A stretch of 63,959 nt of DNA, filler included, from Conidiobolus incongruus B7586 (lineage: Eukaryota), in assembly GCA_000697335.1 (NCBI GenBank). It is 9 parts of 9 records of this genome, joined end to end, with 100 filler letters (N's around TTAATTAATTAA, not from the genome) between each part and the next. Parts side by side here need not be neighbours in the genome. Positions count along the whole stretch, not along the records: positions 53,099 to 55,442 come from JNEM01007063.1; 8 more parts are not named here. One strand, written 5' to 3'. The notes under the pieces are model-generated. The model was given only the letters and a program-made list of their open reading frames with translations. It did no database searches and had not been told where the DNA came from. Position 1 is the stretch's first letter. Each line of letters starts with the position of its first letter. The translations under genes were made by a program, and so were the position numbers. This document shows, piece after piece, positions 11,969-63,959 of this stretch.

Positions 11969-12347
11969 TCCCAACTTTTTTCAATTCAGTACCTTTATAT
12001 TAATTTTGTTATTCAATCTTTTTAATTGTTTAAATAGCTAATTTATTATATTTATATCTAATCAATTAATTATTCTTCTGTCATAATTTATAATTAAATT
12101 TTTTTATCATTCATATTGATTTAATTAATTATTAATTATATTATTTAAAATTTAATTCTAATAATAATTCAAAAATAATTAGGATAAATATAAAATTAAA
12201 CTGAATATCATTGATTAATTAAAAACATAAAAACTAAATTTTTTTATTAAATATGATATAAAATTAATTTGTAGAATATATCATAGCTATAAAGTTATTA
12301 AATGTTTTGAAATGTAGGAGATGAGTGAAATAAATGATAATAAAAAA

Positions 12348-24559: not shown

Positions 24560-26078
24560 CCATGCACCAATCCTACAATGTTGAGGGCATCGAGATGATC
24601 CCCAAAATCACATAAGATCCACAACATCCCGTCATAAACATCCGCCTACTTCATGTCCCGGCAATTGATGAAATTGGTGTTGGCGAAGTCCTTGAGGCTA
24701 AACTGAAAGCCACTTTCAGTAAATATGGATACGTCATCCTAGCTAAACATCTCTTACTTGACGCTGATCTCCCTGGCATTTATTCTCATAATGCCCTCGT
24801 GAAAATTATCCCCTTTCCCAACATCATTGACAACCCCGAACTGATCCCCAGAGAGATAATGTTTGGAGAACATGAGGTACTCGTTGATCCTGATAGATGT
24901 CCACCTCAATGCGGACACTGCAAGAAAATTGGACATATCAAACACAATTGTCCAAGAAGCCTTACAGTCAAACTTGAAAAATCTCACACTGAAGCAAAAT
25001 ATACCGGATCCGCCGATCAATACAACAAGACTAACTTAAAAGAGGAAGATTAAATCCGTATAATCCAACGGAAAACAATCCTCAGCAAAACAACATAAAT
25101 ATCCCACAACAACTACAACTTGATAATACTATCATCACTAACAAAGATAACGAAAAAAAATATAAACCCTCAAGACTCCATCAACAAAGCTTCTGCCCAA
25201 GCAAACATCACAAACCCCGACTTCCCAATCCAAGACCGCCAACAAATCCACCAATCCCAACATGCCAACAGCCAAAGCCAACCAAGCCCCAACTCTCCAA
25301 ACCCAAATCATCAAAACACGTCAAATCAGCATATATTGCAATCCAACCAAGAATTGCTCAGCCATTATGAAAGTTTAAACCCGGATGAAATACACATCTA
25401 ACCCAACTTGCCTTGCTTACTCTAACACTGGGATCTCTAAACACTAGAGGTTTGAAATCTTTAGAGAAAAGAACTAAGTTAAGCCACTTATTATCCAAAA
25501 TTCCAGATAAGTTAGATATTCTGGCTGTTCAGGAATGCAATATAACTGACACCGAAATCCTAAAATCCGAATTCCCCTACCCTAATACTTGGTTTGGCAA
25601 AACCAGCTGGCTCATCCTCAATCCCAACATCAACATCACCTCATCCCAAATGATTGACGACAAGGGCAGACTGTCTAATATCATAATCTCCTACGAAGGT
25701 CACAAACTATCCCTCTTGAACTGCTACTTACCCTCAAAAAGAAATGAACGCATTAAGTTCACTGAAAAATTTCTCTACAATATAGAATTTGAGATCGACT
25801 TTCTCTTAGGAGATCTCAATACCATAATGAACCCTATTACGGATAAATTCCCATCTCTTGACCAACGAAAACCAGAAACTTATCCATTGGAAAACTGGCT
25901 ATCCACTTTACACCTGATAGACTATTCCCTCCAAATCTCTAACAAAATTCAACAGATTCACTCAACCTAACCTGAGAAACAGATCCTTTTCAAGAATTGA
26001 TTATATTTTCACACATGACAATAACATCTGTAATATCACAAGTTATTATACCTAGCCAATCCCAATAACAGTTCATAA
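24560..26078 (+). mobile_element. Non-LTR retrotransposon (L1/Tx1-like) fragment: ORF1 plus APE endonuclease, pseudogenised
   Basis: ORF1 has an RRM-like segment (IRLLHVP...LKATFSKYG) and a CCHC knuckle CGHCKKIGHIKHNC. ORF2 has APE motifs LGSLNTRGL, DILAVQE, LNCYLP, LGDLNT and, after a 1-nt frameshift near 25968, SRIDYIF. In-frame stops are present. It is cut by a mariner relic at TA 26079-80. Confidence 0.9.
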
Positions 26079-26080
26079 TA

Positions 26081-26860
26081 CTCTGTATTTTAAACAATGT
26101 GATTTTTTTGTGATTAAAAATAAATAAATGTTTTGATATATAATAAATAAAAATGATAATATAATATAAATTTAATAGTTTCTTTTATTATCAATAATTT
26201 TTTACCATTTTTTTAACAAATTTCTAACACTTAAAAAACAATTTTTTTTATTAAGGATTAAAATTTGATATTTTACAAACTAATTAAATTTTCCTGTAGA
26301 AATTTTTTTTCTTATAGGTTAGTTTTTTAATTACCTAAAGTAATTATAATTATATAAGTTATAATTAAATGAATATATTAAATTTAATATTTTTTTCTAG
26401 CTATTTTTAATTAAAATTTTTTTTATAATTTTAAATTTATATATTTTATAATTATCATGTAAAATAATATATATCTTTAATTTATATTAAGAACATTATT
26501 TAAAAATTATTTTACTGAAATAATATATGATTTATTATTAATTCATTTTCCTTAACATATTAAATAAAAAAACTATATATTATTATAATTTTTTATAATA
26601 ATTAACACTTATTTATATTTAAAATGTTTATTTATTAAAATTTATAAAAGGGATTAATTTAATTTAACATTTTATTTTATTTTTAAGTAAAAAATTATAT
26701 AAAAAAATTTAAGATATATTAATTATAAGTATTTATTATAAAACCTTAGTTTTTAATTATATTTTAATAAGTTTAATTTAATTATAATTATTTTAATTTT
26801 TTTAAACTTTTGTTAAATTATAAAGTATATATTTTATATTTTTATTAATTAATTTAAGCT
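26081..26860 (-). mobile_element. Mariner transposon relic, 3' part, hypermutated
   Basis: The reverse complement aligns with ~35860-36652. It begins at TA followed by a TIR (CTCTGTATTTTAAACAATGTGA) and runs into a gap. Confidence 0.8.
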
Positions 26861-26960
26861 NNNNNNNNNNNNNNNNNNNNNNNNNNNNNNNNNNNNNNNN
26901 NNNNTTAATTAATTAANNNNNNNNNNNNNNNNNNNNNNNNNNNNNNNNNNNNNNNNNNNN

Positions 26961-27378
26961 TCATCGTCGATAAAATCCTCGGCCATAGACGCTATTATAA
27001 CCAAGATCTATACCTCGTCCAATGGAAAGGATACCCTAAAAATGAAGCTACTTGGGAACGCTATAATAGCGTTAAAAAGACCAATGCCTATCATGCCTAC
27101 GCTGAGAAGCATTCAAAGATTAGAGCGTCTCCTAATAAGGACACCTCAATCTGAGGGGAGTGTCATAGATCAGATCACTTTGTCATCATCGTGACACTGT
27201 CAATCATATCTGCTTACCTTATCTTATCTCTTTTATCTACTTGATCTTATCTTGTCTAATTTTACCTCTGAACCCTCACCAACTTTTACATATAAAAATG
27301 GGAACCATTGCCAAATAAACAAGGACTTTTTCCCACACTGTTCACATTGAAACAACTTGTATACATTGCCCTGTTATA
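26961..27378 (+). mobile_element. 3' end of Ty3/Gypsy chromovirus (LTR family 2): chromodomain, PPT, 218-bp LTR
   Basis: 26963-27154 encodes IVDKILGHRRYYNQDLYLVQWKGYPKNEATWE...* (intact chromodomain). PPT GAGGGGAG at 27153-27160. LTR 27161-27378 (TGTCATA...TGTTATA) appears identical to 53308-53525 and 55604-55821. Confidence 0.93.
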
Positions 27379-28323
27379 ATATATGTTTTATACTATAATA
27401 AATACTATTTACACCTCAAAAAAATACCTTTAACTAAATAAGTTTTATTATAAAGTCAAGTGGGAGTTTAAATATCACTATTAAAGTTAAATTAAAATAA
27501 ATTAGAATAAGGTTATTTAATCTAATAAAGCAAAAATATATAATAATATTTTTAATAAAAAAGCTAGATATTTCAAAAAAAAAACAAAGAACTACTTTGT
27601 AACTATTATATTATTTTAACTTAAAAATATAATAGTAAGTTAATTATAGTTTAAGAATATATATTATCTTTCAATATAAAGTAATTTTATAAAGTTAATA
27701 GGTGAATTAATATTAAAATATATTAAAATATTCGAGATAATAAATTAAAAAAATTATTTAATAATAAAAGTCAAATAAATTGAATATTTTTTAACAAGAT
27801 AATAACTTTTGTTATATTATTATTTTTATTACCAAATAACTTAAAAATAATAAATTAATAACTATAAAGTAGTTTTTTTAATTTTTTAATTTTAATCTAA
27901 TAAAATATCTTTGAAATTAGTTAAAAAAAGTAATCAAAGCTTTCCCACCAGCAAAAAATTTAAATAAGCTTGAAAAATATATTTAAGAAATTTAAAACAA
28001 AATTAATCTTTTTTAATATAAAAAATTAGTTAACTATATACCTTATAAACTTAAGGAAGTTAAAAATCAAAAAATAAATATATTAAGTTTTAATTTTCTT
28101 TTTATAACTAAATTATATAAATATATGACTTATTTTAAATAAAGTTTAAATTTTTATATATTAATTAAAAATTAATATAATTTGATCAAAAATATTAAAT
28201 TATAAATAAATAATATACATTTATTATATATTTTGATTTAAATTGATTTAATCAAAATTTAACAAAGTAATTGATAAAAATATGTATGATTATAATTTTA
28301 TAACTTATTTTTGTAAGCTAGTG
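27379..28323 (+). mobile_element. Tc1-family transposon relic, 3' part with right TIR, hypermutated
   Basis: Aligns with ~62830-63540 and with the reverse complement of 33979-34930. The WPPQSPDLNPIEHLW region has decayed to *FF*FFNFNLIKYL*. The TIR ends ...TTGTAAGCTAGTG. Confidence 0.8.
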
Positions 28324-28758
28324 TTTAATAAACTAATTAATACTAATAATTCAAATAATCTTATAAGTTGATTTATCTTTATTATAAATTTAATTAATAT
28401 ATAAATAGATCTTTTTAAAGAGGGATTTAAGTATAATAATATTAATAAAAAGAATTTAATATATTTATAAACTATTTTATAAAATAATAACAAAGAGAGA
28501 AAAAAGATATGATTTATATTATTAAATATATCCTTTTATCTTAAAAACTTACAGATTTATAACTTATCTTAATTAAATATTTAAGGTCAATATATTTGTT
28601 AATAACTTATTAAATATATTAAAATATATTTATTTATTATCAAATATTATATTTTAATTTTATATTATAATTTTAGATATTTAATATATATAATTATTTT
28701 TGTTATTAATAAAAAAATATATATTTTTAATTTGTTAACCTATTTTTATAAGTTAGTA
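28324..28758 (-). mobile_element. Second Tc1 relic (5' part plus left TIR), opposite orientation
   Basis: 28330-28465 matches 35120-35253 (GAGGGATTTAAGTATAATAAT). It ends in a decayed TIR ...TATAAGTTAGTA followed by TA. Confidence 0.7.
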
Positions 28759-28913
28759 TATTAAAATTTATATTAAATAATATTAATATATTATAATATT
28801 GATAAATTATAATATAAAATTAAAATAATAAAAATAATAGAAATTAAAAGAAAAAAATATAATTAATCAGAAATTTAATTTAATTTTAAAAATTAAACTA
28901 TTAATAATTATAT

Positions 28914-29270
28914 TGTAAGCGTTGTGGTAGTTAAACTAATATAGTGCAGAGGAAGACTTAATATAAAAGTAGTGTGGCGCAGAACGTGGTAATATAATGT
29001 GGCTGTAGCGTGCAAGTGTAAACAAAGTTTAATTAAGCTTCGAACTAGGATGAGTCACTGATATATTAAGATTTATATTAGGTAGTGCCAATATCCTACA
29101 ATATCGACAGAATATAGTCTCAATCTTAGAAATAGTGTGAAAGTAAAAAATAGTAAGAATTGAGAGGAAAAAAGAGGAACCTAGTTTATTAGATAATTTA
29201 ATACTATTTATACAATTAATTTAACTATATAAGTATAAATTAATCATATAATTTATAGTTAATTGGATTA
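28914..29270 (-). mobile_element. LTR, family 1 (copy A), truncated by gap
   Basis: Near-identical to 63541-63939 and to the reverse complement of 32149-32546. Terminal TGTAAG on + corresponds to the CTTACA LTR end. Confidence 0.92.
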
Positions 29271-32110: not shown

Positions 32111-32546
32111 TAGGGAGTGTGTCTCCTCTAAGAGACCCACTGGGGGAGTGTTAAGAGACTAGTTCTCTAAATTCTTATATACACTTTATATAATCTAATT
32201 AACTATAAATTATATGATTAATTTATACTTATATAGTTAAATTAATTGTATAAATAGTATTAAATTATCTAATAAACTAGGTTCCTCTTTTTCCTCTCAA
32301 TTCTTACTATTTTTTACTTTTACACTATTTCTAAGATTGAGACTATATTCTGTCAATATTGTAGGATATTGGCACTACCTAATATAAATCTTAATATATC
32401 AGTGACTCATCCTAGTTTGAAGCTTAATTAAACTTTGTTTACACTTGCACACTACAGCCACATTATATTACCACATTCTGCACCACACTACTTTTATATT
32501 AAGTCTTCCTCTGCACTATATTAGTTTAACTACCACTACACTTACA
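32111..32546 (+). mobile_element. 3' LTR, family 1 (copy B) with PPT
   Basis: PPT GGGGGAG at 32142-32148, then a 398-bp LTR 32149-32546 (TGTTAAG...CTTACA). All CpG sites seen in copies A/C are TG or CA here. Confidence 0.92.
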
Positions 32547-33261: not shown

Positions 33262-33978
33262 CACTTAACAATAAGTAAATATCTGTAATAAGGTTACTAA
33301 CATAATATAGCTCAATATTTATTAAAAAATTGATCATTAAATATTTATATTTATTTTTAATATTAGTAAATATTCTTAAGAGAAGATTTATTTTATTTTT
33401 GATATTAAAATCTATATTAAATCTCTTTGATTTATCACCTGTTTAATAAATGACAAAAACAAAATTTATTTTTAATAAAATTAATTTATCAATATAACTA
33501 ATTATTCAAGAAGTTAAATTTTATTAGGTTATAAAATTATTAATTCAATGTATATCAATTTATATACTATAAAAATCAAATTATCAGTATATATAATAAT
33601 GTTTGCAAATATTTTATCAAATTCTTAATTTGATTTAAAGTGATAGTTTCAAAAAATAAAAGTAATTTATAAGGTTATAACATTAATCATGCTTATGAAT
33701 TAAATTAGTTTAACTATAATTTGTCAACTATATGAAATATTAAGAAATACTAACAAATTTTGATATTTTGATTTTATAATTTAAGCTTATATCATTAACC
33801 AAAATTTGGTGTTTATAATCTAATTATTAAAAAAATTATTCTAGCTATTTTATTATTAATTTAATATACTCTTTTTATTAGATTAATGAAATAAATTTGT
33901 TATTAATATTATATTCCCATTTATTATCCTTATGTTATCAAGTATTTGAAAGATATCCCTTATACTAAATATTTATTA

Positions 33979-35253
33979 CACTAACCTACAAAAGTAAGTT
34001 ATAAAATCAAAAACACCTATATTTTTACTAATAACTTAATTAATATTTAATAAAATAAACTTAAATTAAATAATTAAAATCTATTATATTTATTAGTTAT
34101 ATATATTATTAAATAATGATATTTAGTTATTAATTGGTTAAAATATAAACCTTTAAATTTTACCTAAGGTAAGTTATAAATTGGTAGGTTTTTGGTGATA
34201 AAAAAAAATTAAAACCTAGTGTATCTACCTTTAACTTTTTTAACTTCTTTAAGTTTATAGGGTATAGAATTAATTAACTTCTTACACTAAAAAAGGTTAA
34301 TCTTGTTTTATACTTCTTGAATATATTTTTAAAGTTGATTTAAATTTTTTACTAGGGGGAAAACTTTAATAACTTTTTTTAACTAATCTTAAAAGTATTT
34401 AATTAGATTAAAGTTAAAAAATTAAAAAAGTTACTTTATAACTATTATCTTGTTATTTTTAAACTATTTGGTAGTAAAAGTTATAATATAATAAAAAACA
34501 TTATCTTACTAGAAAATAACATTAGAATTATTTAACTTATATTATTTAATGGTTTTTTTTAATTTATTATTTAGAATATTTTAGTATATTTTAGTATTAA
34601 TTCCTTTATTAACTTTATAAAAATACTTTACACCTAAAGATAACATATATCTTTAAATAATAATTAACCTACCACTATACTTTTAAGTAAAATTAACATA
34701 ATAGTTATAAAATAATTATATATTTTTTTTAAAGTATTTAGCTTTTTTATTAAATCTACTAAAGTATATTTTTGTTTCATTAAATTAAATAACTTTACTT
34801 TAATTAGTTTTAGTTTAATATTAGTAATAACATTTAAACTTTTACCTAGCTTTATAATAAAATTTCTTTAGTTAAAAGTGTTTTTTTTAAAGTATAAATG
34901 GTATCTATGTTAATATAAAGTATATATAATAGTATTAATGCTAACTGATATTCTTATATAGTTTTATAGTTCTTGTTATATTTCTACAATAGTACTATAT
35001 TTACCTACATTAACTAACTTACAAATATACTTTTTATTATATTTATCTATAATTTTAACACATTTAAGTTTAAGTTTAAATGTTTTTTTATTGTTTTTTT
35101 TAACAACTTTAACTATAGTAGATTAACTAACACTAGTAATCTTAACAATATCATAAGTTAATTTACTTTCTTTATAAAGTTAATTAATATATAAGTAGAT
35201 TTTTTTAGAGAGGGATTTAAGTATAATAATACTAATAAAAAAAATTTAGTATA
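33979..35253 (-). mobile_element. Tc1 relic with long TIR, hypermutated, runs into gap
   Basis: TA followed by CACTAACCTACAAAAGTAAGTTATAAAA matches the TIR at 62216. The minus strand reads the transposase C-terminus KLINSIPYKLKEVKKVKGRYTRF*. Confidence 0.82.
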
Positions 35254-35353: not shown

Positions 35354-36652
35354 AAATTTAAAATAATGGGACATTTTTTAATTTCTGATTTTTCAAACAT
35401 ATTATTAGTTTGAAATAAATAAATATATACAAAGTTAATAGGAAATTATATATTTCTAATATATATATATATATTAGTTTTTTTGATTAAAAAATTAACT
35501 TTTTAATATTGGTTATTTAATTTAATTATGTTTAAACTAAATAGTGATCATTAAAAGTTTTTTATTTTAGTATTAGTAAAACTTAACTATAAAATCTTTA
35601 AAATTATCTAAAATTTACAAGCAACTTTTAGTAATGAAACATTATCTAAATTAATAATTTATTGCTAGGTAAATTACTTTAAAGCTAAGAGAAAAACTAT
35701 TCAAAACCTATTAAAATCTAGAAAACTAACTTCAACTATTACTCTTTTAATTATAAATAGAGTGAAAAAATATATTGAAAAGTATTTTTTTATTTTAGTT
35801 AGAGAATTATCTAAGTACTTTAATATTAGTTTTATAAGTATTTTATATATTTTAAAGTTTAAACTAAAATTAATAAATAAAAATGTAAAATAAATACCTT
35901 ATAATTTAACTAAAGCTTAAAAAAAGCTAGAGTAGCTATTGTTAAACAAAACCTATTAAAATATTACTAGAAGCTTAAACTTTTACAATGAATAATTATA
36001 ATTAATGAATCTTAAATCCCTATTTATAATCTTTTATTAAAACACAAATCAAAATGCTAGATTAAGTTAAATTAACCCCCTCTACAAATCCCTTTAAATA
36101 AGCATTTTGTTAATAAGTGAATATTAATTATTGTAATATATTATAATAATATATGCTATTTTTATTTAGTTCCTGAAGGAAAATTAATTAATAGTAAATT
36201 ATATATTGTTTTTTTAAATAAAAGTATTTCTAATTGGTGTTTTCAATATAATTTGAGAAAACCTATTATTTTACATGATAATTGTAAAATACATAAATTT
36301 AAAGCTGTAAAAAACTTTCTAATTAAAAATAACTAGAAAAAACTACCACATCTAGTATATTCTTTTTATTATAACCTATGTAATTATAATTACTTTAGGT
36401 AATTAAAAAACTAATTTACAAGAAAGAAAATTTCTACAGGAAAATTTAATTGGTTTGTGAAATATTAAATTTTAGTTTTTAATAAAAAGAATTGTTTTTT
36501 AGGTGTTAGAAGTTTGTTAAAAGTATAACAAAAAGTTATTAATAATAAAAGAAACTATTAAATTTATATTATATATTTATTTTTATATATTATATATTCA
36601 AATGTTTATTTATTTTTAATTGCAAAAAATTCCCATTATTAAAAATATAAAG
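35354..36652 (+). mobile_element. Near full-length mariner relic, hypermutated
   Basis: Decayed mariner motifs appear in order: K*IPYNL (WVPHEL, ~35890), IIIINES* (IVTGDEKW, ~36000), IILHDNCKIH (~36270), LPHLVYSFYYNLCNYNYF (YSPDLAPSDY, ~36345), GVRSLLKV*QKVI. TIRs contain TAATGGGA/TCCCATTA and a terminal TA follows. Confidence 0.85.
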
Positions 36653-36659
36653 TAATAAT

Positions 36660-37246
36660 AACTATTTTAACTATTTTAACTTTTTTAAACATTAGATTAT
36701 AAGGTAATTATTATATATTTTTATTAATTAATTTTAATTTAAACTTTAATATATATAAAATACTTATGTAATTAATATTAAAGTACTTTAATAATTCTTT
36801 AATTGAAATAAAAAAGTGTTTTTTAATATAATTTCTCACTTTATTAATAATTAAAAAAATAATAATTAAAATTAATCTTTTAAATTTTAACAAATTTTAA
36901 GTAGTTTTTTTTAACTTTAAAGTAATTTACTTAGTAATAAATGATTAATTTAAATAATCCTTATTATTAAAAGCTACTTATAAATTTTAAATGATTTTAA
37001 AGGGTTTGTGGTTAAATTTTATTAATACTAAAATCAAAGACTTTTGGTGATTATTATTTAATTTAAGCATATTTAAATTAAACAACCAATTTTAAAAAAT
37101 TAATTTTTTAATCAAAAAAATTATTATATATATAATTCAAAACTATTTATTTTCTTATTTGTTTTGTATATATTTTTTTATTTGAAATTAATAATATGTT
37201 TAAAAAATCAAAAATTAAAAAATTTCCCATTTTTTTAATTCTATAG
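36660..37246 (-). mobile_element. Mariner relic, 5' fragment, opposite orientation
   Basis: The reverse complement aligns with ~35360-35890. It ends in TIR TTTCCCATTTTTTTAATTCTATAG followed by TA. The left boundary is approximate. Confidence 0.72.
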
Positions 37247-37630: not shown

Positions 37631-38797
37631 TTATTTATAAACAAATTTAATACCAGGCTCTAAGGATAATAGATCATTCATTTCTTTATAGCTATAGCCA
37701 TATTCACAGCAGATTTCGTCCATACATTTGGATCCATCTAGATATTTCTTTAATCCAAGAGGAATTACACCTTTGATTTCTTCAATTAGGATTGGATATT
37801 GGTGGACACGATAAAGCACGTTCCTCATAATCCCAAATAAAAAGAATCGTCTAACATCAACATTTAAAGAAGTTATCTGATTATCTTCAACCCATTGAGC
37901 AACTGTCACTCCGCTTTGTAGAGAACAGTATAAAGAAAAGAGCTTGGGAAAAGAAGGGCCAGGTTTTCCAGGTGGAATAACGAAATGAATACATTCGGAT
38001 TGAAGGTTTGGATTTGTTATCAACTGATTGACACTCGGTTTGACTGCATATATGTTTGAATACTGAAAGGTGTCTACAGTTTGTATTCCTCCATAATAAG
38101 CAAGGTTATCAATGCATTTCTGAGTTAGATTAATTTCAACGCCACTTAGTTGACTGATCTTTTTAACATGATTGATTCCATTGATATGAGGGATGATTTG
38201 CCGCGTCGTCAAGTCCCAACCAGGTTCACTCAGTGCCATTAAATCTACGAGTGGAAGAGGAGTCTGATGTGGTTGAATAGGAATGGGCTGCTTATATAGA
38301 GGAAACAGTTTAAGGTTCAAAATATCTGATTTACCTAGCATAATTCTAGTCTCACACATATTATTTAAATCTTCTAGCATATGTTCAAAAGTTGGTAGTA
38401 AGAACTGTTTACGCTCTGGGTTGCTTAAAAACTCTCTATCTTCCTCTATGGTCTTCAAAAAATTAGCCATCTTTTTGACCAGAGGCTCATAGCTAAAAGT
38501 GTTACTATTGATGTCAAAAACAAAGCATAAATTAAACATGAGAGCATTTCTTTCGTATTTATCATGTTCTATGGTAATTGGACATCCGACAACTTTATAA
38601 TTTCTGGTACAGAACGTAATGAGTCGATGACAAAGTGGTGTTTTTGGAATTACTAAGTCTGAGTATTGGTCGAAATCAAACAATCTGCTATCTTTAGAAG
38701 TTAAACTGCCTTCAGGAACTTCATAGATCACCTTGGGACCTTGAATCGGATGAAATTCACTATAAAATAAACAGTGAAGTTTCGGAAAACCAAACAT
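37631..38797 (-). CDS. NPR2: GATOR1/SEACIT subunit Npr2/NPRL2
   Basis: 388-aa ORF with FYSEFHPIQGPKVIYEVP, YERNALMFNLCFVF, LNLKLFP, WDLTTRQIIPHINGINHV, DTFQYSNIY and DVRRFFLFG. Confidence 0.95.
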   Translation of the reverse strand: MFGFPKLHCLFYSEFHPIQGPKVIYEVPEGSLTSKDSRLFDFDQYSDLVIPKTPLCHRLITFCTRNYKVVGCPITIEHDKYERNALMFNLCFVFDINSNTFSYEPLVKKMANFLKTIEEDREFLSNPERKQFLLPTFEHMLEDLNNMCETRIMLGKSDILNLKLFPLYKQPIPIQPHQTPLPLVDLMALSEPGWDLTTRQIIPHINGINHVKKISQLSGVEINLTQKCIDNLAYYGGIQTVDTFQYSNIYAVKPSVNQLITNPNLQSECIHFVIPPGKPGPSFPKLFSLYCSLQSGVTVAQWVEDNQITSLNVDVRRFFLFGIMRNVLYRVHQYPILIEEIKGVIPLGLKKYLDGSKCMDEICCEYGYSYKEMNDLLSLEPGIKFVYK

Positions 38798-49600: not shown

Positions 49601-51742
49601 TGGTGGATTCCAACGACATACTCTGATCATCACCTATATTACTGATACTTACTTGAGATTCGCCAATACGCAAATCATTGATAGTTGAATTTAAAGGTTG
49701 AGAAACATCGTTATTGTAAATAGACACAAAGGGCTGAGATTGGTTGAATGTTATAGACAATCGAGTATTTGGGCGTGGCTGGCCAAATGGGATTGTATTG
49801 TCTAAATTCTCCATGTGATGATCATCAGGTTGAACTATTCCAGAAGGTGCAGTTGACTGAGATTGATCATAGATAGAATTAGAAATCACCATTGAAGACT
49901 CATTTGATTTTTGGCTATTATTTTGGAGATAAAAGCTCGAGAGTTGAGTAAGATCCATTGGAGCAGATATTCTTCTATTAAATGATATACTTTTTTGAGA
50001 TCCCTTGAAGAAACTTGAGTTACCAGTAATATCCATAGGAACCGATCCCCTTCTGTTAATTTCCTCATCTTCAATTTGATTGAATTCATGTTTATCAACT
50101 TGATGAGTAGCGGAGGGGTTTCCATTATAGAAATCGCTGTTTAAAGTCAAATCCTGTGGGAGAGATAGACCATTATCTTCAATCAAGCTGGAATCTGTAG
50201 ATAGCTGCTTATTTGGCTGATGTTGATTTTCAAAGTTTTCGCTATAATCTGCTTCTATTTGAGGTGAGACAAATAACTTATTATCTATAAAATCGAGAGG
50301 AAAAATTCAAAAATTAAAGAATGCCAATAGCCAATAAAGAGTTAGTACTACCTTTTACATTGCTATTAGAGTTGGAAAATGCTGAGAAAGAACATGAGTA
50401 TTTTAGATTCAACATATTAGTTTAGAATTTACCTTGATCTGAATTTTGACTGATGTCCATCATATGTGAGGATGTTTCCATGATGTTAACAATTGTTACA
50501 TTTTCTCCTTGGTATTGAGAATCAGAAGGCTCTATCAAGTGAGTCAACTTTGATGAGTCTATATTTTGACATTAGAAATAATATTCATTGAAGGTGTAAT
50601 AATCAAAATTTGAGTTGTTACACTAACCATTGATTTGATCCTGTGTTACATTATTATCAATAAAAGATTGTGATTCAGATAAGTTATGATTCGAGGTATC
50701 TACATAAAGCAATTAATATATTAAAGATATAACGGGTAACTAAGTATTACCCTTACGAGTCTCAGAAAGATCATTAGTTGGATTGCTGGTTGCTTCAGAA
50801 ACCAAAACATGCATATTTTTAGAATCACTCTCTAATAAATCTGATTGATATAGTTTACACTAAATATTAGATCATGTAATATAATATACCTTGTTGCTCA
50901 CTTGGTTCATGTTTCTCATAGAAATTATCGTAAACAAGATCAAGCTCTTTTTTAAGACTCTTGTCATATAATGGGCGCTGGTCTATTTGATTTGTATCAT
51001 CAATAAGTGCTTCACTTGCAATAGAAAGTTGAGAAATTTCAGATCCAAATAACTCAAAATCCTTCTGTGTGGGACGTCCAGGGTTCTTTAATCTTTTTTC
51101 TAAGTCGCCGTTTGATAAAATACTAAGATTTGGCGGAGTTTTACGTGCCGATATAATCTTTTCCTCATAACCAGTATCGCCAATGTATGAAAATCCTCTA
51201 AAATTATGTAAATAAAATATTAGTATAATAAAAATAACTATTACCTTTTATTTGAGCTAATTCTGTTAAAATCAGGGGATCTAAAAGTATTTGAATTACT
51301 TTGTTGTGATCTAAATTCAAAAATTGTAAATTTCAAGTTAAATTTAAATAATAAAAACAATACTGCTTGGATTCTACTTGTGTGTGAGATTTTCCAATAT
51401 TATTCTTATTAGGTGAGAATAAATCATTCGATAACAAGTTTCTAGTATCTGGTGAAAGAGACCTATATAAATCCAAATTATTAGGCCATATTAAATAATC
51501 GAATCAAATAAATACCCTCTAGTTCTGTCAATTAAGTGACGTGAATCAGCTCTAAATATATAAATTAAATACATAATTTAAACTTAATAAAGTAAAGGCA
51601 TACTCTTCTTCAGATCCGTATTGTGTTGTAGAATAATAGATCTAAATTTGATTATTTTAAAAATGAAATATGAAAAGAATATAAACAATACCTTTGTCTG
51701 ATTATTATTGTTGCTGGTTTGATTATGTGAATTAGATGACAT
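46640..51742 (-). CDS. Kinetochore scaffold Spc7/Spc105/KNL1-like, many exons (boundaries approximate)
   Basis: Long S/N/Q-rich disordered region with MELT-like MDIT and MDLT. The block LTLEQFFESVGL...SLAQYI...QFYESMCQTLESQV...IIQDY resembles the Spc7 domain. A coiled coil and a likely RWD-like C-terminus follow. Probable ATG at 51742. Confidence 0.72.
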
Positions 51743-53098: not shown

Positions 53099-53525
53099 TG
53101 TATTGGGGTTTCGTGTTGACTGCTAGTTGATTGAACGACATTATCGTCGTCAATGTCCATGGCTGATGTATTATGCATATACGCGGGTATCAAGTTGAGG
53201 AAATTGATTTTGGTTAGTTAAAATATTGGCAGGCAATTAGATTCAAGGTGATTCAAGTTCTTGATGTTTTCAGCGTCGGTGTGAGGATCAAGTGTTCGCT
53301 GCTACCATATAACAGGGCAATGTATACAAGTTGTTTCAATGTGAACAGTGTGGGAAAAAGTCCTTGTTTATTTGGCAATGGTTCCCATTTTTATATGTAA
53401 AAGTTGGTGAGGGTTCAGAGGTAAAATTAGACAAGATAAGATCAAGTAGATAAAAGAGATAAGATAAGGTAAGCAGATATGATTGACAGTGTCACGATGA
53501 TGACAAAGTGATCTGATCTATGACA
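53099..53525 (-). mobile_element. 5' end of chromovirus family 2: LTR, PBS and probable gag start
   Basis: LTR 53308-53525. PBS TGGTAGCAGCG (53297-53307) abuts the LTR. A downstream frame MHNTSAMDIDDDNVVQST... runs into the gap. Confidence 0.9.
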
Positions 53526-55250
53526 TATTCTTAAGATTTAATAAGTAATATTTAATAAATATTATAATTTACTTGATAAAAGACATTAAAAGAAGTTAAA
53601 AATTATAAAGAGAATTAAAACAAGATATTATTAACTTTCTTTAATTAAATTAGTTTAGAAATATATTAATACTTATAACATATGCTAAAAAATTAAATAT
53701 AATATTTAACTAAAATATAATAAACTTATTCCTTTATAAATCCTTAATAAAGCTTAATAACAAATATAATTTGATTTAATAGAAATATTTAAATCAACAA
53801 TTAATTATAATAACTTACTAATTGTAATAGATTTATTCTTTAAGTATGTTTATTTTATTGCTTATTCTAAAACTTTTATAATTAAAGATATTGCACAATT
53901 ATTATTTTTTATTATTTTTACTTATCATAAAATTCCACAAACTATTATATTTAATAAAGATATAAATTCAACTTTTAATTTTAGAGGTTACTATCTTTTT
54001 CCTTCAAGATTAATCTAGCTATATTTATTATTAACTATTACTAGACTAATAAACTTATTGAAATAACTATCAAAACCTTAAAGTAAATAATTAAAGCTTA
54101 TATTAATATTAATTAGTTGATTTAAAAACCTATATCTACCAACATTAATATTTATTTGATATCTTTATCAATAAATTAACAAGTTTTAGCTTTTATTTCA
54201 TTAATTATAACAAATATCCTAATTTAATAATTCCTTTAAAACTTTAGATTAATTTATTTTTAAATGTTGTTGAATTTTAATTTAATATCAAATATATTAA
54301 TTCCTTTGTTAAATTTAACTTGGAAGAGAATTAAAAGATTATAAAATAATAATATTTAAAGTTATATATAAATCCTCTTAAATATAAAATTAGTATGTTT
54401 ATATATTTAGAATAATCTGCTTTTAAACTTAACTTACTTAAATCTAGCTTAAATCTAAAATACTTGCTATTATATTATAGTCCTTATAAAATTTAATCTA
54501 TTAATTTAAATTTCAAAAATATTACCTTGGAATTATCTTTAACTTTAGAGATTAACTTTATCTTTTGTATATCTAAAATCAAACCTTATTTTAAAGATTT
54601 TAATATTTTTTTAATTGATTTAAAGCTTTAAAATTAAATGTAGTTATTAATTAAAATGGAGAAAAAAATACTATATTAATTATATAATTAAATCTAAATT
54701 TATTAGGAATAAGCTTTATTTCTATATAAAATAAATAGGTTATTTTATTAAAGAAGCTATATAAGAACCTTAAGAAAATATTAAGAATATTTTAACTTAT
54801 TATACATATTTACAAAAATCTAAAGAGTGTATTTCTTTTAAGAAACTTATTGAAAAAATATTAAGAGATTAGTTCTTTAAATTTTGATATATACTTTTAT
54901 ATAATTCAATTAACTATAAATTATATGATTAATTTATATTTTTATAGCTAAATTAATTCTATAAATAATATTAAATTATCTAATCAACTAGTTTCTTTTT
55001 TTTTAATTTTTATTATTTCTTATTTTTTTCACTATCTTTAAAATTAAAAATATATTCTATCAATACTATAGTATATTAACACTACCTAATATAAAACTCA
55101 ATATATCAGTGACTCTTTCCAGTTTGAAGCTTAATTAAACTTTATTTATATTTATACACTACAGCTATATTATAGTACTATTTTCTATATTATATTATTT
55201 TTATATTAAGTTTTTTCCTTATTATATTAATATTTACCACCATACTTATA
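53526..55250 (+). mobile_element. Hypermutated Ty3/Gypsy chromovirus relic (family 1): integrase, GPY/F, chromodomain, PPT, LTR copy D
   Basis: Decayed motifs: IVIDLFFKY (VVVDRFSK, 53821), HKIPQTIIFNKD (HGIPQTIVSDRD), YSPYKI (GPY), FIFCISKIKPY (PVFHVSKIKP), FYIK*IGYFIKEAI*EP*ENI (chromodomain). 54821-55250 aligns with 32111-32546, giving an LTR at 54859-55250. Confidence 0.85.
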
Positions 55251-55603
55251 AAAAATTTATATATTTTGATTAATTATATTTTATTTTAAATAAATCAAAT
55301 AAATTACTATATTAATCTAATTTGAAAAAATTTAACTAAAAGTTAATAAAATTATTAATAAAGATAAATATGATTGTAATTTTATAATTTATTTTTTAAA
55401 GCTAATATATATTTTGATTTAAATAAATTATTAATATTTTTANNNNNNNNNNNNNNNNNNNNNNNNNNNNNNNNNNNNNNNNNNNNTTAATTAATTAANN
55501 NNNNNNNNNNNNNNNNNNNNNNNNNNNNNNNNNNNNNNNNNNAATAATTTAAATTTAGTTATATAGTTGGGTTTGTTGTTAGCATTATAGGTGTGATGGA
55601 TAT

Positions 55604-55821
55604 TATAACAGGGCAATGTATACAAGTTGTTTCAATGTGAACAGTGTGGGAAAAAGTCCTTGTTTATTTGGCAATGGTTCCCATTTTTATATGTAAAAGT
55701 TGGTGAGGGTTCAGAGGTAAAATTAGACAAGATAAGATCAAGTAGATAAAAGAGATAAGATAAGGTAAGCAGATATGATTGACAGTGTCACGATGATGAC
55801 AAAGTGATCTGATCTATGACA
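55604..55821 (-). mobile_element. Solo LTR, family 2, with 5-bp TSD GATAT
   Basis: Appears identical to the other two family-2 LTRs. GATAT occurs at 55599-55603 and 55822-55826. Confidence 0.95.
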
Positions 55822-57455: not shown

Positions 57456-60400
57456 ATATGAATAATTGAACCAACAGAAATAGCGAATATTAATAATTAC
57501 TTTAGACAGTGAATTATATGAAAACAAGAAAACATTAAGGTTGTAGAATTTAACTTATTATAACTAAATATTACAATCAGTCAAATTTATTAATTTGAAA
57601 TTGATTTTATAATTCAAAAATTCAGACACTGATTTCAAATTATTACTTTTATAAAATTATTTCAACCATTTTATTGGTATTGTGGATAATTTCATCCCTT
57701 AATATTCGGATTTACTTAATTTAGTAAATTCTCGAAATTTTAAATTCTATTTGTTTAAAATATAAAAGATTTTAGTTAAAAATAGTTAGAAATTCAATGG
57801 AAAACACTGTCAGGGTTAAAAAAATACATTAAGAAACTTGTAATAATATGACATAATTCAATATTATAGCAATCAATATTTTATTTTTTATCTGATAAAA
57901 ATATTAATTTGTCAATAAATTTGGATATTTACATTCATTTTTGTTCAAATTTAATTCAATTGAGCTTGCAAAGTTTAAAAATCATAAGCTAAATCAAATA
58001 CAATCAATATTAATTTAATACTATATTAACTATATCACAACCAACAGTATTAAAATATTATGGAATTCCGATAAACATTAAATAAAATATATTCACTGCA
58101 TCATATGTAAACAGTTCAAAAAGGGGTATATATTTTAATTAAATTAAATATTTGAACAATATTACTAGTTTTAAAATAATGATTTTTATTCCTGTTGTTT
58201 AATTTCACACACTACTCCTTTTGTCCTTGATTAATGATGTTATTATGATATTACTCTTGTAAGGATAGCTTAGAGTATTTATTATATAATCGAGATATTT
58301 CCAAATCGATAAAACGTTTGATCAATATCCAGAATACAATCCTTATTATCGATATATCCAATTATTGTAATAAATATGTATTGTATTTGATAATATATAC
58401 TAATTGATTTATGAGATAAAACTTTGACCTATTTACTCTTTATTAAAATTTTTAAATTATACAATTTGTAATCAAGTATATATAATATGAATTATCAAAT
58501 ACAATTATTTTAGAGATAAAACTGTACTCGTTCGCGATTTTCATTTAATCAGACATGAGAGGCTTAAAATAATTTTAATAAAATCATTCAATTCGCTAAA
58601 TTGCAGTATATATATAATTAATTTGATTTGATAACTGTCACTAGATAATATATCTTTTACTAAATGAATTAAGTTTTTTATTAATTTGAGTTAAATTAAA
58701 TAGGATTACATTGATAATCCTGAGTTAAGCTGAATTATATATTAATAATATATATTATGTGTTATTCTGTGAAAAATATTGCCGTTTATTAATCACTCTT
58801 GGATTTAAAATTAGAAAATCAGTTATTGTATAGGTAAATTTATAATCTATATTTATATAACAACATAGCTGATAAAAAAATATAATAAATGTAATAGTGG
58901 TAATTTATCTTCTATTTCTTCGTGCATAATTGTATGTATAGGCTTTCATCCTTTTCAAATGAGTGTTTTAATTAATACCTTCCTAAATAAATTAATCATT
59001 AAGCCTAATATTCTAACTAGGTTTGATTTATGATTATATCACATTATTGTACTTTTATTATAGGTATTAACAACTTGATATTTAAAATATTAATCAGTAA
59101 GCTTACATATTTAACAATAACTCTTGCATCATTGTTGCATAGTAATCAATTTAGTGATGGGAAATAACCTTGTTAATCACTCAAGAAACTGGGATTACCA
59201 AACTGAATCTAGAAGTCACATTAATGAACACCTATTTCCTGAACCGAATGGTTGTGTTCCTTTCCGTCACTAAGCCATTCCTATCAATAAAAATCAACAA
59301 TGAAAGCTAATATAAGATTATCACGAATGAACTAATAAATATATCTCTTGTCTTCATTCCAAAAGTATCCGATATCCAAGTTTTTTTTCGTAACCCTCAC
59401 AGAAATGTTGAGTTGCGACGAGTGTGAGAAATTTACTTTACACGAAGAGTCCAATTTACAGTAAGCCATTTTCACCTTATTTGGTGATTCCCATTAATTT
59501 CCCTTAAATCTGCAGTAACCTATCGTTTACCACTGCCAACTCCTCATTTAAGCTCTAAAGTCTATTTTCTCCCACAATTACAGTTGTCACTAGTAACTTA
59601 TATATATTAAATATTGTTATGACTAAAGAACATAATTTTAGGTATATTAGTATAAATTTAAGATATATAGATTTACTAAATTTAAAAATACTATTTTATT
59701 AGGTGTCACGTATATATATATATTACATATATTCCAAATTGAAAAATTTAATTATTTTATCCTTTATAATTGGGTATAAGGTAATTTTATTTTAATAAAT
59801 GAAACAAATAGAATGTTATTTAAAAACTTCCTCTGTTAAAAAAAAGTAAATTTCTATCATATATAGTGTTATAATTTTTGCTGATTTAAACTTTTATTTA
59901 TTATTACTATTTTTATCATATTTTTTTTCAATCTATAAATTTGTTTTTAAGATTTTTATTAATATAAAAAAAGTTTTGATTAAAATTTTAATATTTCATA
60001 TATTCACCAAATATTTATTATATAATAAATATATATATATATTTTAATTAAAACTAAATATTAGAATATTTTAATAATTCTAAATATAAATTNNNNNNNN
60101 NNNNNNNNNNNNNNNNNNNNNNNNNNNNNNNNNNNNTTAATTAATTAANNNNNNNNNNNNNNNNNNNNNNNNNNNNNNNNNNNNNNNNNNNNAATTATTA
60201 ATAATAAGTAATAAAGGTTCTTTAAAATTTTAGTTAAGAGACTTATCTTTACCATAATAATATAGTTTTAAAAATAAGATATAAAAAACTAAATAATATT
60301 TATAAATTTTTAATAATTTTAATTTAAAATTTCTAGGTTTAGTATTTGTTTTAAAGATATAAAATAGCTTAATCCAATATAATAAAAGCTTTTGTTTTAT

Positions 60401-62215
60401 ATTATTCTTAGATATTTATTAGATAAAAGGTATATCTATTGTATTTAAAGAGACTAATAACTTAAGTTTATATTTAAATAAAGTTTTATAAAACTTTAAA
60501 TAATAGTTTTTATTATATATTTGTTTTAACTTAGTTGATTTTAAAAACTATTTAATAAATCAATTCAAATCTTTCTAATTTATTTATAATAAACTTATTA
60601 ATAATAACATTTAAGTTAAGGTTAATTAATAAGTTAAAATATTATTAATAATTTATAAAATAAAAAGTTAAACCATTAAATTAATTAATTAAGTTATTAT
60701 AAACAGATTATTGATAAAATAAAAAAGATTTTTAATTATTTTAATTAAAATTAATATAATTTAAACCATTTCTTATCAAGTCTTAATAGCTTTTTTAACT
60801 AGTTTATTTAATTAATAATGGTGAGTAATATTGAGCTTTATATGAATATCTATATATTATATAAAAGCTTTTTAGAATTTTAAAGTAAATTTAAAATCTT
60901 TATTAATAATAATAATAATAATTAATTTATATAATAAAATCACCTTTTTAATTAATAAATTAGTTTTTTTAAATATTGTAATTATTTTATAAGAATATAA
61001 TAATAAAATTTATTATATGAATTAATAGCTATAAAAATAATATCAGAGCTTTTTTAAACAAATATTTCTATAAAGTTAAGTTATATTTAATTTTAAGATT
61101 TAAATAAAAAGGAAAAGAATTTAATTCACCAATTATTTTTTTATTTATATTTATTTCTCTAACAATTATCATAAGATTTATAATAACCTTTTACCAACTT
61201 AATTAAATTAGGTATATAATATTTTGTTAGAATTTTATCAATAAATTAAATTTAACTTTAATATTTATTTCATTTATAATTATTATATTATTTTAAAATT
61301 TTTAATTAAAAGGTAAATAATTTGAAAATATAAAAATTATTATGTTTATATAATAAACCATTAAATATTCAGAATCTTTTATATTTAAGTAGTTTCTTCT
61401 TATTATTCTCTTTTATTTTAACTTTAATAATTAAATAAAAATCATCATATTATAGTTTTTATTTTAAAATTTAATAAAAGTCTTTTTTATTTTAGATGAT
61501 AATTGTTATGTTAGTTTTAATTGGTTTTTTACACTTATTATATAATAGTGTATAAATTAAATATTTATTTAACATACCTACTATCCTATTTTATTAACTA
61601 AAAAAATATTTAATTAAAAATAAGTATTTTAGATAATTTTTATTTATTTAATTTATCTTCAAAATAAATACTTTTATAAATTTAAGTAAATTAATAATTT
61701 ATATTTACTTAAGTATAAAAACTCTTTGTGGAATAATTAAAAATTAGATTTTTTTATAATTTTTACTAAAGCAAATATTTTTTTATATATAAGATAATTT
61801 TGTTTATTAAATATTAATTTTCTAAATTAAAATATTAAAGGTTTTAAATTTAAATATTTAAAAACCTTTTGGTAATTAGTTATCTTTTTTAAAATTTTAA
61901 AATAGTTATACTTTTTAAAATCTTTGATAATTTTACTTTATATTATTTAACTTATAATATAAGCAAACACATCTATAATAATAATAATTAATAACTTCAA
62001 ATTAAATTTTGCAAGTATTAGAGTTATAATGATTTTATAAATTAATATATAAAAAGAGAAAATTTCATTAAAGGTTTAATTAAATAANNNNNNNNNNNNN
62101 NNNNNNNNNNNNNNNNNNNNNNNNNNNNNNNTTAATTAATTAANNNNNNNNNNNNNNNNNNNNNNNNNNNNNNNNNNNNNNNNNNNNATTCCTAATAAAC
62201 TTAAATTTAATTATA

Positions 62216-63540
62216 TATTAACCAACAAAAGTGAGTCATAAAATCAAAATTACTTTTATATTTACCTATATCTTAAATATTTCTTAATTAAATAATTTTA
62301 AATTAAAATATATAATTTATCTATAATAATTGACTATAATTAATTTTATTTGATTGTATTTCATTAACTATTGGTTGATATATCAAAACCTAAAATTTAA
62401 CCAAGGTGAGTTATAAATTTGTGGGTTTATATATTAAAGGATATAAATAACAAAATTTATATATATCTTCTTTTTTTTTATTATATTACATATATTATAA
62501 AACTATTAAGCTAATATTTTATAATTAATATTATAATGCTTAAATCTCTTTTTTAAAAAATTCACTTATATATTAATCAACTTTTTAATAAAAATAAATC
62601 AACTTGTGAGATTATTAGAATTACTAGTGTTAGCTAATTTATTATAGCTAAGGTTATTAAAAACAATGCTAAAAAATAATTAAATCAAAACTTAAGTATA
62701 TTGAGATTATAGATAAGCATGAAAAAAAGTATATTTGTAGATTAATTAGTATAGGTAAATATAATATTAGTATAGAAATATAACAAAAATTATAAGACTA
62801 TATAAGAATATTAATTAATATTGATATTATTTTATATATTTTATATTAAAATAAATATCACTCATATCTCAAGAAAAAACATATTTAACTAAAGAAGTCT
62901 CATCATAAAGTTAAGCAAAAGTTTAAATATCAATATTAAAGTTAAATTGAAATTGACTAAAATAAAGTTATTTAGTCTAATAAAACAAATATATATTTTA
63001 ATGGATTTAATAAAAGAGATAAATATTTCAAAAAAGATAAAAAATTATTTTATAACTATTATATTATTATAACCTAAAAATATAATGATGGGTTAATTAT
63101 AGTTTAAAGATATATATTATCTTTAGGTATAAGATATCTTTATAGGATTAATAAGGGAATTAATACTGAGATATATTAAAGTATTCTAAATAATAAATTG
63201 AAAAAAATTTTTAAATAAATATAGTTTAAATAAATTAAATATTATTTTCCAACAAGATAATATCTTTTGTTATATTATAGATTCTATAATTAAATAACTT
63301 AAAAATAAAAAAATAATTATTATGAAATAACCTCCTTAATCTTTTAATCTTAACCCAATTGAATATCTTTAGGATCAATTAAAAAAATCAATTAAAGCTT
63401 TCCTTTTAGCAAAAAATTTAGATTAACTTTGGGAGTATATTCAAGAAGCTTAGAATAATATTAATCTTGCTTAATATAAGAAGCTAGTTGACTTTATACC
63501 CCACAAACTTAAAGAAGTTAAAAAAGCAAAAGATGGATAT
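62216..63540 (+). mobile_element. Tc1 relic with left TIR and nearly whole transposase, interrupted by an LTR element
   Basis: Decayed motifs VI*SNKT (VIWSDET), DGLIIV*RYI (GGSIMVWGCI), IFQQDN (~63245), *PP*SFNLNPIEYL* (WPPQSPDLNPIEHLW, ~63328) and LKEVKKAKDGY at the LTR junction. Confidence 0.88.
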
Positions 63541-63959
63541 TGTAAGCGTTGTGGTAGTTAAACTAATATAGTGCAGAGGAAGACTTAATATAAAAGTAGT
63601 GTGGCGCAGAACGTGGTAATATAATGTGGCTGTAGCGTGCAAGTGTAAACAAAGTTTAATTAAGCTTCGAACTAGGATGAGTCACCGATATATTAAGATT
63701 TATATTAGGTAGTGCCAATATCCTACAATATCAACAGAATATAGTCTCAATCTTAGAAATAGTGTGAAAGTAAAAAATAGTAAGAATTGAGAGGAAAAAG
63801 AGGAACCTAGTTTATTAGATAATTTAATACTATTTATACAATTAATTTAACTATATAAGTATAAATTAATCATATAATTTATAGTTAATTGGATTATATG
63901 AAAGTGTATATAAGAATTTAGAGAACTAGTCTCTTAACACTCCCCAAGTAGGTCTCTTA
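63541..63959 (-). mobile_element. 3' LTR, family 1 (copy C, 399 bp) with PPT; element continues past window end
   Basis: LTR 63541-63939. The PPT complement CTCCCC starts at 63940, and the adjoining sequence resembles 32128-32148. Confidence 0.92.

What the first reader, a model, noticed from the sequence alone, without database searches (positions are those of the whole stretch)
53526..55250. RIP-like two-strand C->T hypermutation of repeats in an apparently early-diverging fungus
Seen: aligning 54821-54875 to 32111-32165 by hand gives 17 differences in 55 nt, all C->T or G->A (PPT GGGGGAG -> GAAAAAA, LTR start TG -> TA). In the pol relic, positions expected to be Trp, Gly, Asp and Pro read TAA, AAA, AAT and TTT/TCT, yet motif order and spacing survive with few indels. 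Nearby single-copy genes keep open frames and many CpG codons. Established: RIP in Pezizomycotina (Neurospora, CpA-biased, RID-dependent) and RIP-like TpCpG mutation in Pucciniomycotina give this kind of signature. Inference: a repeat-targeted mutagenic defence, with broader context here (CpA, CpT and CpC all hit), acts in a zygomycete-grade lineage.
Basis: partly seen in the sequence, partly recalled or inferred. Interest (0 to 1): 0.85.

Follow-up and report, generated by a model that had tools for sequence, protein, structure and literature searches.

The report
Transposon C-to-T hypermutation in Conidiobolus fungus
Dead transposon copies in a close relative of the insect-killing fungus Conidiobolus coronatus have lost half their cytosines to C-to-T changes on both strands while neighbouring genes and young copies are spared, a scar likely left by a DNA-methyltransferase-linked genome defence in a fungal group where such repeat mutation is still disputed.

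Summary
Observation confirmed: 17 of 17 differences are C>T or G>A. Over the whole LTR, 67 of 121 C/G sites are hit, against 7 of 292 reverse changes and 14 transversions in 418 columns. The host is an entomophthoralean sister to Conidiobolus coronatus, not an ascomycete. Ty3 and Tc1 relics (10.6 kb) hold 1 CpG against 48 expected; equally AT-rich non-repeat DNA holds 37 of 56. A general AT bias therefore does not explain it. CpG loss spreads about 0.5-1 kb into flanks, while CpA loss stays inside repeats. Two Tc1 copies differ in 5' context (p=7e-9). Best reading: a methyltransferase-coupled repeat mutator like Zymoseptoria Dim2 (0.5). Passive 5mC decay (0.25) and true RID-type premeiotic RIP (0.15) remain open. 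No enzyme, methylome or second genome region could be examined. Index-based RIP was already suggested for Zoophthora, and a kingdom-wide screen scored C. coronatus no_rip.

The parts
53528..54820 (+). Hypermutated Ty3/Gypsy (chromovirus-type) pol relic: integrase zinc finger, core, chromodomain (54663-54815); GC 0.146, 0 CpG
54852..54858 (+). Mutated polypurine tract of element A4
54859..55250 (+). 3' LTR copy A4, both termini mutated; 67 of 121 C/G sites changed to T/A
32111..32546 (+). LTR copy A1 with PPT (LTR 32149-32546): GC-rich, but 6 of 6 unambiguous CpG lost and only 2 of 117 non-CpG C changed
63541..63959 (-). Young LTR copy A2 with PPT, inserted next to Tc1 relic D2; keeps 6 CpG
28914..29270 (-). 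Young LTR copy A3 (cut by a scaffold gap); keeps 6 CpG
53099..53525 (-). Young family-B element: 5' LTR (53525-53308) followed by a primer-binding-site-like motif and internal sequence; abuts the relic and keeps 10 CpG
   Evidence: the PBS label is recalled, not tested
55604..55821 (-). Family-B solo LTR with 5-bp target-site duplication; 218 of 218 identical to B1
26961..27378 (+). Family-B 3' end: intact chromodomain, PPT and LTR; unmutated internal control (2 of 2 Trp codons TGG)
33972..35253 (-). Tc1/mariner-type relic D1, 0 CpG, spares ApC
62199..63538 (+). Tc1/mariner-type relic D2 (Pfam DDE_3 at E 0.00073, below the curated cut-off), 0 CpG
27383..28463 (+). Tc1/mariner-type relic D3
60193..62087 (-). 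Second hypermutated Ty3/Gypsy pol relic (RNase H to integrase), GC 0.117, 0 CpG, 0 of 9 aligned Trp positions still TGG
35354..37242 (.). Hypermutated element with about 550-bp inverted ends (C1 35354-35910, C2 36691-37242) around core E2; on the same gap-free contig as NPR2
26067..26860 (.). Hypermutated copy E1 of that core; GC falls from about 0.35 to 0.10 at its left edge
24563..26066 (+). Dead LINE 5' part (stop and frameshift) that is not hypermutated: GC 0.40, 28 CpG, 3 of 3 Trp codons TGG; internal control
37634..38797 (-). NPR2 gene used to place the host

Best explanation
Old transposon copies in this Conidiobolus relative carry C-to-T changes on both strands at about half their cytosines, likely because a DNA cytosine methyltransferase system marks repeats and would turn the marked cytosines into thymine faster than chemistry alone. 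Shown: the changes are directional transitions, on both strands, in retrotransposons and DNA transposons alike, and absent from genes, AT-matched intergenic DNA and young copies. Shown: there are two layers. CpG is lost first and completely, and the loss fades over about 0.5-1 kb of flank; CpA > CpT > CpC loss is confined to the repeats. Inferred: the CpG layer reflects CpG methylation of a heterochromatin domain that spreads past the repeat (DNMT1-type), and the non-CpG layer reflects a DIM-2-like enzyme acting as a mutator in episodes, as Zymoseptoria Dim2 does in mitosis. Inferred: the outcome is permanent inactivation (Trp codons become stops; LTR ends and PPT are destroyed), with young copies escaping until they are marked.
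For: Direction and spectrum; pooled over 4 independent pairs, 342 transitions against 30 C:G<>A:T, 65 A<>T and 2 C<>G transversions in 2232 columns. Non-CpG C>T in A4 is 58 of 108, or 0.77 hits per C, against 0.033 transversions per site: ratio 23, conservative bound 10. Repeat restriction: relics 1 CpG of 48.0 expected, CA:CT 413:829; flanks 166 of 231.6, CA:CT 1801:1471; 14 AT-matched windows (GC 0.18) 37 of 56.4, CA:CT 595:450. Distance gradient: CpG o/e 0.16, 0.38, 0.58, 0.66, 0.71 while CA/CT stays 1.13-1.25. Uneven action: A1 lost 6 of 6 unambiguous CpG while A2 lost 1 and A3 0; D1 and D2 differ in 5' context on both strands (5'A 14 of 64 against 41 of 55, p=7e-9); the A1-A3 lineage carries 7 C>T and 0 G>A relative to A4. 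Precedent: Dim2-dependent mitotic C>T in repeats (PMC8016269 passages); 5mC confined to repeats in Phycomyces and Linderina (PMC11258239 passages); PF00145 genes reported in all fungi of the entomophthoralean set (PMC11105155 passages).
Against: No methyltransferase, deaminase or methylome of this species was seen; no genome is held and two metagenome scans found no related DNA. The numbers come from one window and a few copies. A1 also has more non-CpG private changes (4) than A2 (2-3) or A3 (1), so it may simply be older. The 7:0 strand skew is marginal given more C than G. Hits along A4 are not significantly clustered (53 runs against 61.6, p=0.07). The context difference shrinks in the three-copy leave-one-out test (D1 p=0.0085, D2 p=0.036, D3 p=0.19) and is absent in C1/C2 (p=0.54) and E1/E2 (p=1). 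Zymoseptoria Dim2 spares CpG, whereas CpG is hit hardest here. A ratio of 10-23 is of the order that passive CpG decay reaches in mammals (recalled, not from a call). In C. coronatus, AT-rich tetramers are not enriched in annotated repeats over non-coding DNA (0.87-1.03; PMC12543289 supplement).
Confidence: 0.5

Rival explanations
1. Passive decay: repeats are densely methylated in CpG and non-CpG contexts (MIP-like silencing), and spontaneous deamination of 5mC over long times, perhaps in resting spores with few replication errors, gives the pattern with no dedicated mutator.
For: CpG is lost first and spreads into flanks. Young copies beside saturated relics are untouched. CpG signatures in fungal transposons were ascribed to methylation plus deamination (PMC4352252 and PMC3318451 passages). 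Pooled young copies show 7 CpG losses, 3 non-CpG C>T and 2 transversions, too few to exclude it.
Against: It needs non-CpG sites to decay 10-23 times faster than transversions accumulate. It does not predict copy-specific 5' context or 6 of 6 against 1 of 12 CpG losses among near-identical copies.
Confidence: 0.25
2. True RIP: duplications are recognised by pairing in the sexual (zygospore) stage and mutated by a RID/Masc1-class enzyme, with methylation as a consequence.
For: Non-CpG order CpA > CpT > CpC. Sharp edge at E1, where GC drops as similarity to the second copy begins, while the adjoining dead LINE part with no partner in the window is spared. The genus description includes homothallic or heterothallic zygospores (PMC7136305 passages). 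The 218-bp family-B LTRs that escape are short.
Against: CpG, not CpA, is the top target. RID-dependent RIP was found only in Ascomycota (PMC4352252), and the entomophthoralean candidates are 12-14% identical to RID and not claimed as homologues (PMC11105155). The 400-bp copies A2 and A3 stay 97-99% alike. The genome-wide copy number of the LINE part is unknown.
Confidence: 0.15
3. A cytidine deaminase (AID/APOBEC-like) attacks transposon DNA, independent of methylation.
For: D1 lost mostly TpC sites (32 of 64); one-strand set of 7 C>T in the A1-A3 lineage.
Against: Both strands are hit equally, a DNA transposon with no cDNA stage is hit as hard as Ty3, and CpG loss spreads into flanks.
Confidence: 0.05
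4. General AT-biased mutation acting on old neutral DNA, or an assembly or contamination artefact.
For: Intergenic DNA is itself AT-rich (GC 0.18-0.22). The relic lies on a contig bounded by gaps. No single-copy substitution spectrum was measured.
Against: AT-matched non-repeat windows keep CpG and CpA; only 4 of the 14 transversions in A4 are C>A or G>T; relics C1-E2-C2 and C3 share a gap-free contig with NPR2, and E1 with the genes of 1-26860; unmutated controls give null values in the codon test.
Confidence: 0.05

Closest known systems
Dim2-dependent mitotic C>T mutator of Zymoseptoria tritici (PMC8016269)
   Same: Repeat-confined C>T on both strands outside CpG, with CpA favoured among non-CpG contexts; linked to a cytosine methyltransferase there.
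   Different: There >98% of C>T fall at CpA and CpG is spared; here CpG is lost first and CpT is hit heavily. The enzyme and the cell stage are unknown here.
Repeat-induced point mutation (RIP) of Neurospora crassa and other Pezizomycotina (RID, DIM-2)
   Same: Dense directional C:G>T:A in repeats of both transposon classes, Trp codons to stops, AT-rich relics, positive composite RIP index in the relics (0.09-1.13).
   Different: CpG outranks CpA; no RID shown; pairing trigger and premeiotic timing untested; near-identical young copies persist; host is Zoopagomycota.
TpCpG hypermutation of Pucciniomycotina and CpG signatures tied to Masc2/DNMT1 (PMC3318451, PMC4352252)
   Same: CpG is the first and strongest target in repeats.
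   Different: No TpCpG restriction is seen (the CpGs lost in A1 have 5' T, A and G), and more than half of non-CpG cytosines are also lost in old copies.
Index-based RIP signal in Zoophthora radicans and other Entomophthoraceae (PMC11105155)
   Same: Same order of fungi; same inferred outcome.
   Different: That work used the composite dinucleotide index, gave no value for Conidiobolus in the section read, and did not align copies or resolve context; this window gives copy-level spectra in the Conidiobolus branch.

Membership tests
RIP (Neurospora type) | Dense C:G>T:A transitions on both strands of repeats, far above transversions | tested here: met
RIP (Neurospora type) | Confined to repeats, sparing single-copy DNA | tested here: met
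   Non-CpG layer confined, by composition; the CpG layer leaks 0.5-1 kb into flanks; no single-copy substitution spectrum measured
RIP (Neurospora type) | CpA is the preferred target | tested here: not met
   CpG is lost completely first; CpA leads only among non-CpG contexts (22 of 33 against CpT 25 of 55)
RIP (Neurospora type) | Triggered by homology between copies | tested here: inconclusive
   Sharp edge at E1 and spared LINE part, but genome-wide copy numbers are unknown and young identical copies are untouched
RIP (Neurospora type) | Depends on RID/Masc1 | not testable with these tools
   No genome held; PMC11105155 candidates are not claimed as RID homologues
RIP (Neurospora type) | Acts in the premeiotic stage | not testable with these tools
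   Needs crosses or zygospore progeny
Pucciniomycotina TpCpG hypermutation | Target restricted to TpCpG | tested here: not met
   CpGs with 5' A and G are lost too; 58 of 108 non-CpG C lost in A4
Dim2 mitotic mutator (Zymoseptoria) | Non-CpG C>T in repeats, CpA favoured, CpG spared | tested here: not met
   Non-CpG part fits; CpG is not spared
Dim2 mitotic mutator (Zymoseptoria) | Functional DIM-2 and activity in vegetative growth | not testable with these tools
   No proteome or lines available
Ty3/Gypsy chromodomain LTR retrotransposon (the relic itself) | Integrase followed by chromodomain, PPT and TG..CA LTR | tested here: met

The most novel reading that the evidence does not exclude
Conidiobolus has an active repeat-mutating genome defence outside Dikarya that works without RID, with at least two cytosine-targeting activities of different sequence preference (one spreading over CpG, one or more confined to repeats, with copy-specific 5' context). 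This would make mutagenic repeat defence older than Dikarya or independently evolved, and would show that k-mer screens miss it in AT-rich genomes.
Probability: 0.3. Interest if true: 0.85.

Novelty: new variant of a known kind. Interest (0 to 1): 0.58.

Why it matters
Whether RIP-like mutagenesis exists outside Dikarya is open. One paper reports index-based RIP in Zoophthora with major caveats (PMC11105155); a 1,239-genome screen finds it only in Ascomycota and scores C. coronatus no_rip (PMC12543289). Copy-level alignments here show the scar directly in the Conidiobolus branch, whose genomes are small (C. coronatus 40 Mb) while sister Entomophthoraceae exceed 500 Mb through Ty3 expansion. 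The strength of this process could be one reason for that gap (inference). The question becomes testable with a methylome and with vegetative against zygospore lines. My searches found no alignment-level report for Conidiobolus; subscription papers such as Bewick et al. 2019 were not read.

Tried and rejected
No whole genome and no sequencing reads could be examined, so genome-wide spectra, copy numbers and the DNMT complement are open. Metagenome scans with a relative's NPR2 (590 pattern matches, none confirmed) and with an LTR motif (0 matches) gave no related DNA. A search for intact close relatives of the pol gave none above 39% identity to P0171 and none named as Conidiobolus among the 120 listed of 416. 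The idea that E1 is the downstream part of the LINE, which would have shown a homology boundary inside one element, was not supported: 0 of 12 frames scored above shuffles. Clustering of hits along A4 was not significant. GC content alone does not separate relics from intergenic DNA; only context does. Highest-GC polarisation across heavily mutated copies cannot see CpG sites, which are lost in all copies (families C, D, E), so CpG rates rest on family A and on composition. One search counts 7 CpG dinucleotides lost in A1; one of them is CG only in A2 and may be a gain there, so I use 6. The seven CpG-free flanks were chosen for being CpG-free, so only the distance bins are unbiased; those distances run across scaffold gaps of unknown length, and some flanks may be repeats whose partners lie outside the window. 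Segment edges may hold a few misregistered columns, which would inflate transversions. The tree used 25 rows (the window, 22 of the 120 listed hits, 2 cluster members). The eLife supplements (3 files) held no PF00145 counts. Three of four look-ups of earlier scan notes were empty.

Full report
Observation. Against the three GC-rich copies, A4 has 41 of 76 C>T, 26 of 45 G>A, 7 of 292 AT>GC and 14 transversions in 418 columns. The internal part, 53528-54820, is the integrase-chromodomain end of a Ty3/Gypsy pol. At conserved columns, 16 of 27 differences are reachable by C>T/G>A alone (null 4.1+-1.8; 0 of 5000 shuffles) and 0 by the reverse. Across this relic and a second one at 60193-62087, 0 of 17 positions aligned to Trp of P0171 are still TGG (11 TAA, 1 TAG, 5 other). 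Two unmutated controls keep TGG at 2 of 2 and 3 of 3 and score at the null. The Pro claim was not confirmed (1 of 4 columns fits), and the relic has at least three frame shifts.

Host. NPR2 (37634-38797, minus) has its best named hits in Entomophthora and Massospora. Its 91% unnamed hit clusters with a named C. coronatus protein, to which the window protein is 92% identical. A 25-row tree puts the window sister to the C. coronatus group (100/100) within Entomophthorales (98/96). The host is therefore a Conidiobolus close to, but not the same as, the named C. coronatus protein. Mutated families C and E lie on gap-free contigs with host genes, which argues against contamination.

Extent. A purine/pyrimidine-space repeat map shows several more families, including three copies of a Tc1/mariner-type transposon and an element with 550-bp inverted ends. 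Four independent pairs give 342 transitions and 97 transversions in 2232 columns, only 30 of them C:G<>A:T. DNA transposons and retrotransposons are both hit, on both strands, so the process is not tied to reverse transcription.

Control for AT bias. Relics (10,642 bases, GC 0.133) hold 1 CpG against 48.0 expected and CA:CT of 413:829. Non-repeat flanks (19,327 bases, GC 0.218, some exons included) hold 166 of 231.6 and 1801:1471. Fourteen AT-matched 500-bp windows (GC 0.18) at least 1 kb from any repeat hold 37 of 56.4 and 595:450. This control is by composition; a substitution spectrum for single-copy DNA could not be measured.

Context. The top target is CpG. A1 differs from its sisters at only about 10 sites, yet 6 of these remove all 6 unambiguous CpGs, against 2 of 117 non-CpG cytosines. 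In A4 the non-CpG losses are CpA 22 of 33, CpT 25 of 55 and CpC 11 of 20. CC pairs end as TT 8, CT 6, TC 2, CC 2, other 3, so the first C is mostly lost after its neighbour (inference). Corrected for repeat hits, non-CpG C>T is 0.77 per C against 0.033 transversions per site, a ratio of 23, or 10 at conservative bounds.

Two layers. Outside repeats, CpG o/e rises with distance from the nearest relic (0.16 at 0-250 bases, 0.38, 0.58, 0.66, 0.71 beyond 2 kb) while CA/CT stays at 1.13-1.25. CpG loss therefore leaks into flanks and CpA loss does not. Young insertions inside the nests are untouched: three family-B LTRs are identical over 218 bases, and B1, which abuts the relic, keeps 10 CpG. A dead LINE 5' part (24563-26066) next to relic E1 keeps GC 0.40. 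Whether it is spared for being low-copy or young cannot be told.

Signs of uneven action, and their limits. D1 and D2 lost cytosines in different 5' contexts (5'A 14 of 64 against 41 of 55, p=7e-9), on both strands. The three-copy test is weaker (p=0.0085, 0.036, 0.19), and the other pairs show no such difference. A1 lost 6 of 6 CpGs against 1 of 12 in A2 and A3, but it also has more other private changes. Hits along A4 are not significantly clustered (p=0.07).

Mechanism. Shown: directional, two-strand, repeat-centred C>T with a spreading CpG layer and a confined non-CpG layer. Inferred: cytosine methylation underlies both layers, and the non-CpG layer is enzyme-assisted, as with Zymoseptoria Dim2 (0.5). 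Passive decay of dense 5mC (0.25) fits the CpG layer well and the context differences badly. True RIP (0.15) fits the non-CpG order and the sharp E1 edge, but not the CpG priority, and RID and timing are untested. A deaminase (0.05) and general AT bias or artefact (0.05) fit poorly.

What is known, and what I saw of each paper. PMC11105155 (passages; section 6; 3 supplements searched): composite RIP index 24.2% in Zoophthora and 2.4-5.7% in three relatives, with major caveats; RID-like candidates not claimed as homologues. PMC12543289 (abstract; passages; sections 8 and 9; supplement rows): RIP-like signatures only in Ascomycota; C. coronatus no_rip, with 0 repeats of 1 kb at 95-100% identity and 555 at 80-95%, a lack of long near-identical repeats that fits strong repeat decay or a fragmented assembly (my inference). 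PMC8016269 (passages): Dim2 mitotic mutator. PMC4352252 and PMC3318451 (passages): context signatures by DNMT class; TpCpG. PMC11258239, PMC7862722, PMC13297926 and PMC7136305 (passages): background. Bewick et al. 2019 was not read; its DNMT table may bear on the enzyme question. Searches found no alignment-level report for Conidiobolus. Earlier notes of this scan describe similar scars in Dimargaritales and Endogonales; they are unchecked leads, not support.

Verdict. The feature is real and works like RIP in outcome, but it is not filed as RIP: CpA preference was tested and not met, and RID, pairing and timing are untested. New variant of a known kind; interest 0.58. The bolder reading, an active RID-independent repeat mutator outside Dikarya, has probability 0.3 and would merit 0.85.

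Noticed in passing
window 33972-35253 and 62199-63538: Two Tc1 copies lost cytosines in different 5' contexts on both strands: D1 spares ApC and has lost TpC and GpC; D2 does not. Unexplained; it could reflect different enzymes, episodes or origins.
   Followed up: partly
window 32149-32546, 63541-63939, 28914-29270: The three young A copies share 7 C>T and no G>A relative to the old copy A4 and already have a positive RIP index (0.53-0.66), as if an element re-amplified after surviving partial mutation.
   Followed up: partly
window 53308-53525, 55604-55821, 27161-27378: All three family-B LTRs end in TA instead of CA yet are identical and recently inserted (5-bp target-site duplication at the solo LTR).
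   Followed up: no
window 24563-26124: Dead LINE with zinc-knuckle ORF1 and endonuclease, truncated at its 3' side by relic E1; its only longer relative found is P0123 at 49%.
   Followed up: partly
window 26961-29270, 53099-55442, 62188-63959: Nested transposon clusters: chromodomain Ty3 elements sit repeatedly in or beside Tc1 and Ty3 relics.
   Followed up: no
window 26861-26960 and seven other sites: Every scaffold gap reads 44 N, a 12-base TTAA-repeat spacer, 44 N: an assembly linker, not genomic sequence.
   Followed up: no
window 48199-50306: Minus-strand gene with 69-bp internal repeats and MDIT/MDLT motifs; looks like a kinetochore Spc105/KNL1 relative (recalled, not tested).
   Followed up: no
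window 5436-9569, 30733-31551, 42538-46032, 11886-11971: Intact ABCC-type transporter, mitochondrial phosphate carrier and AP-3 delta subunit (names from reading the translations, not tested) and a tRNA-Leu(AAG).
   Followed up: no
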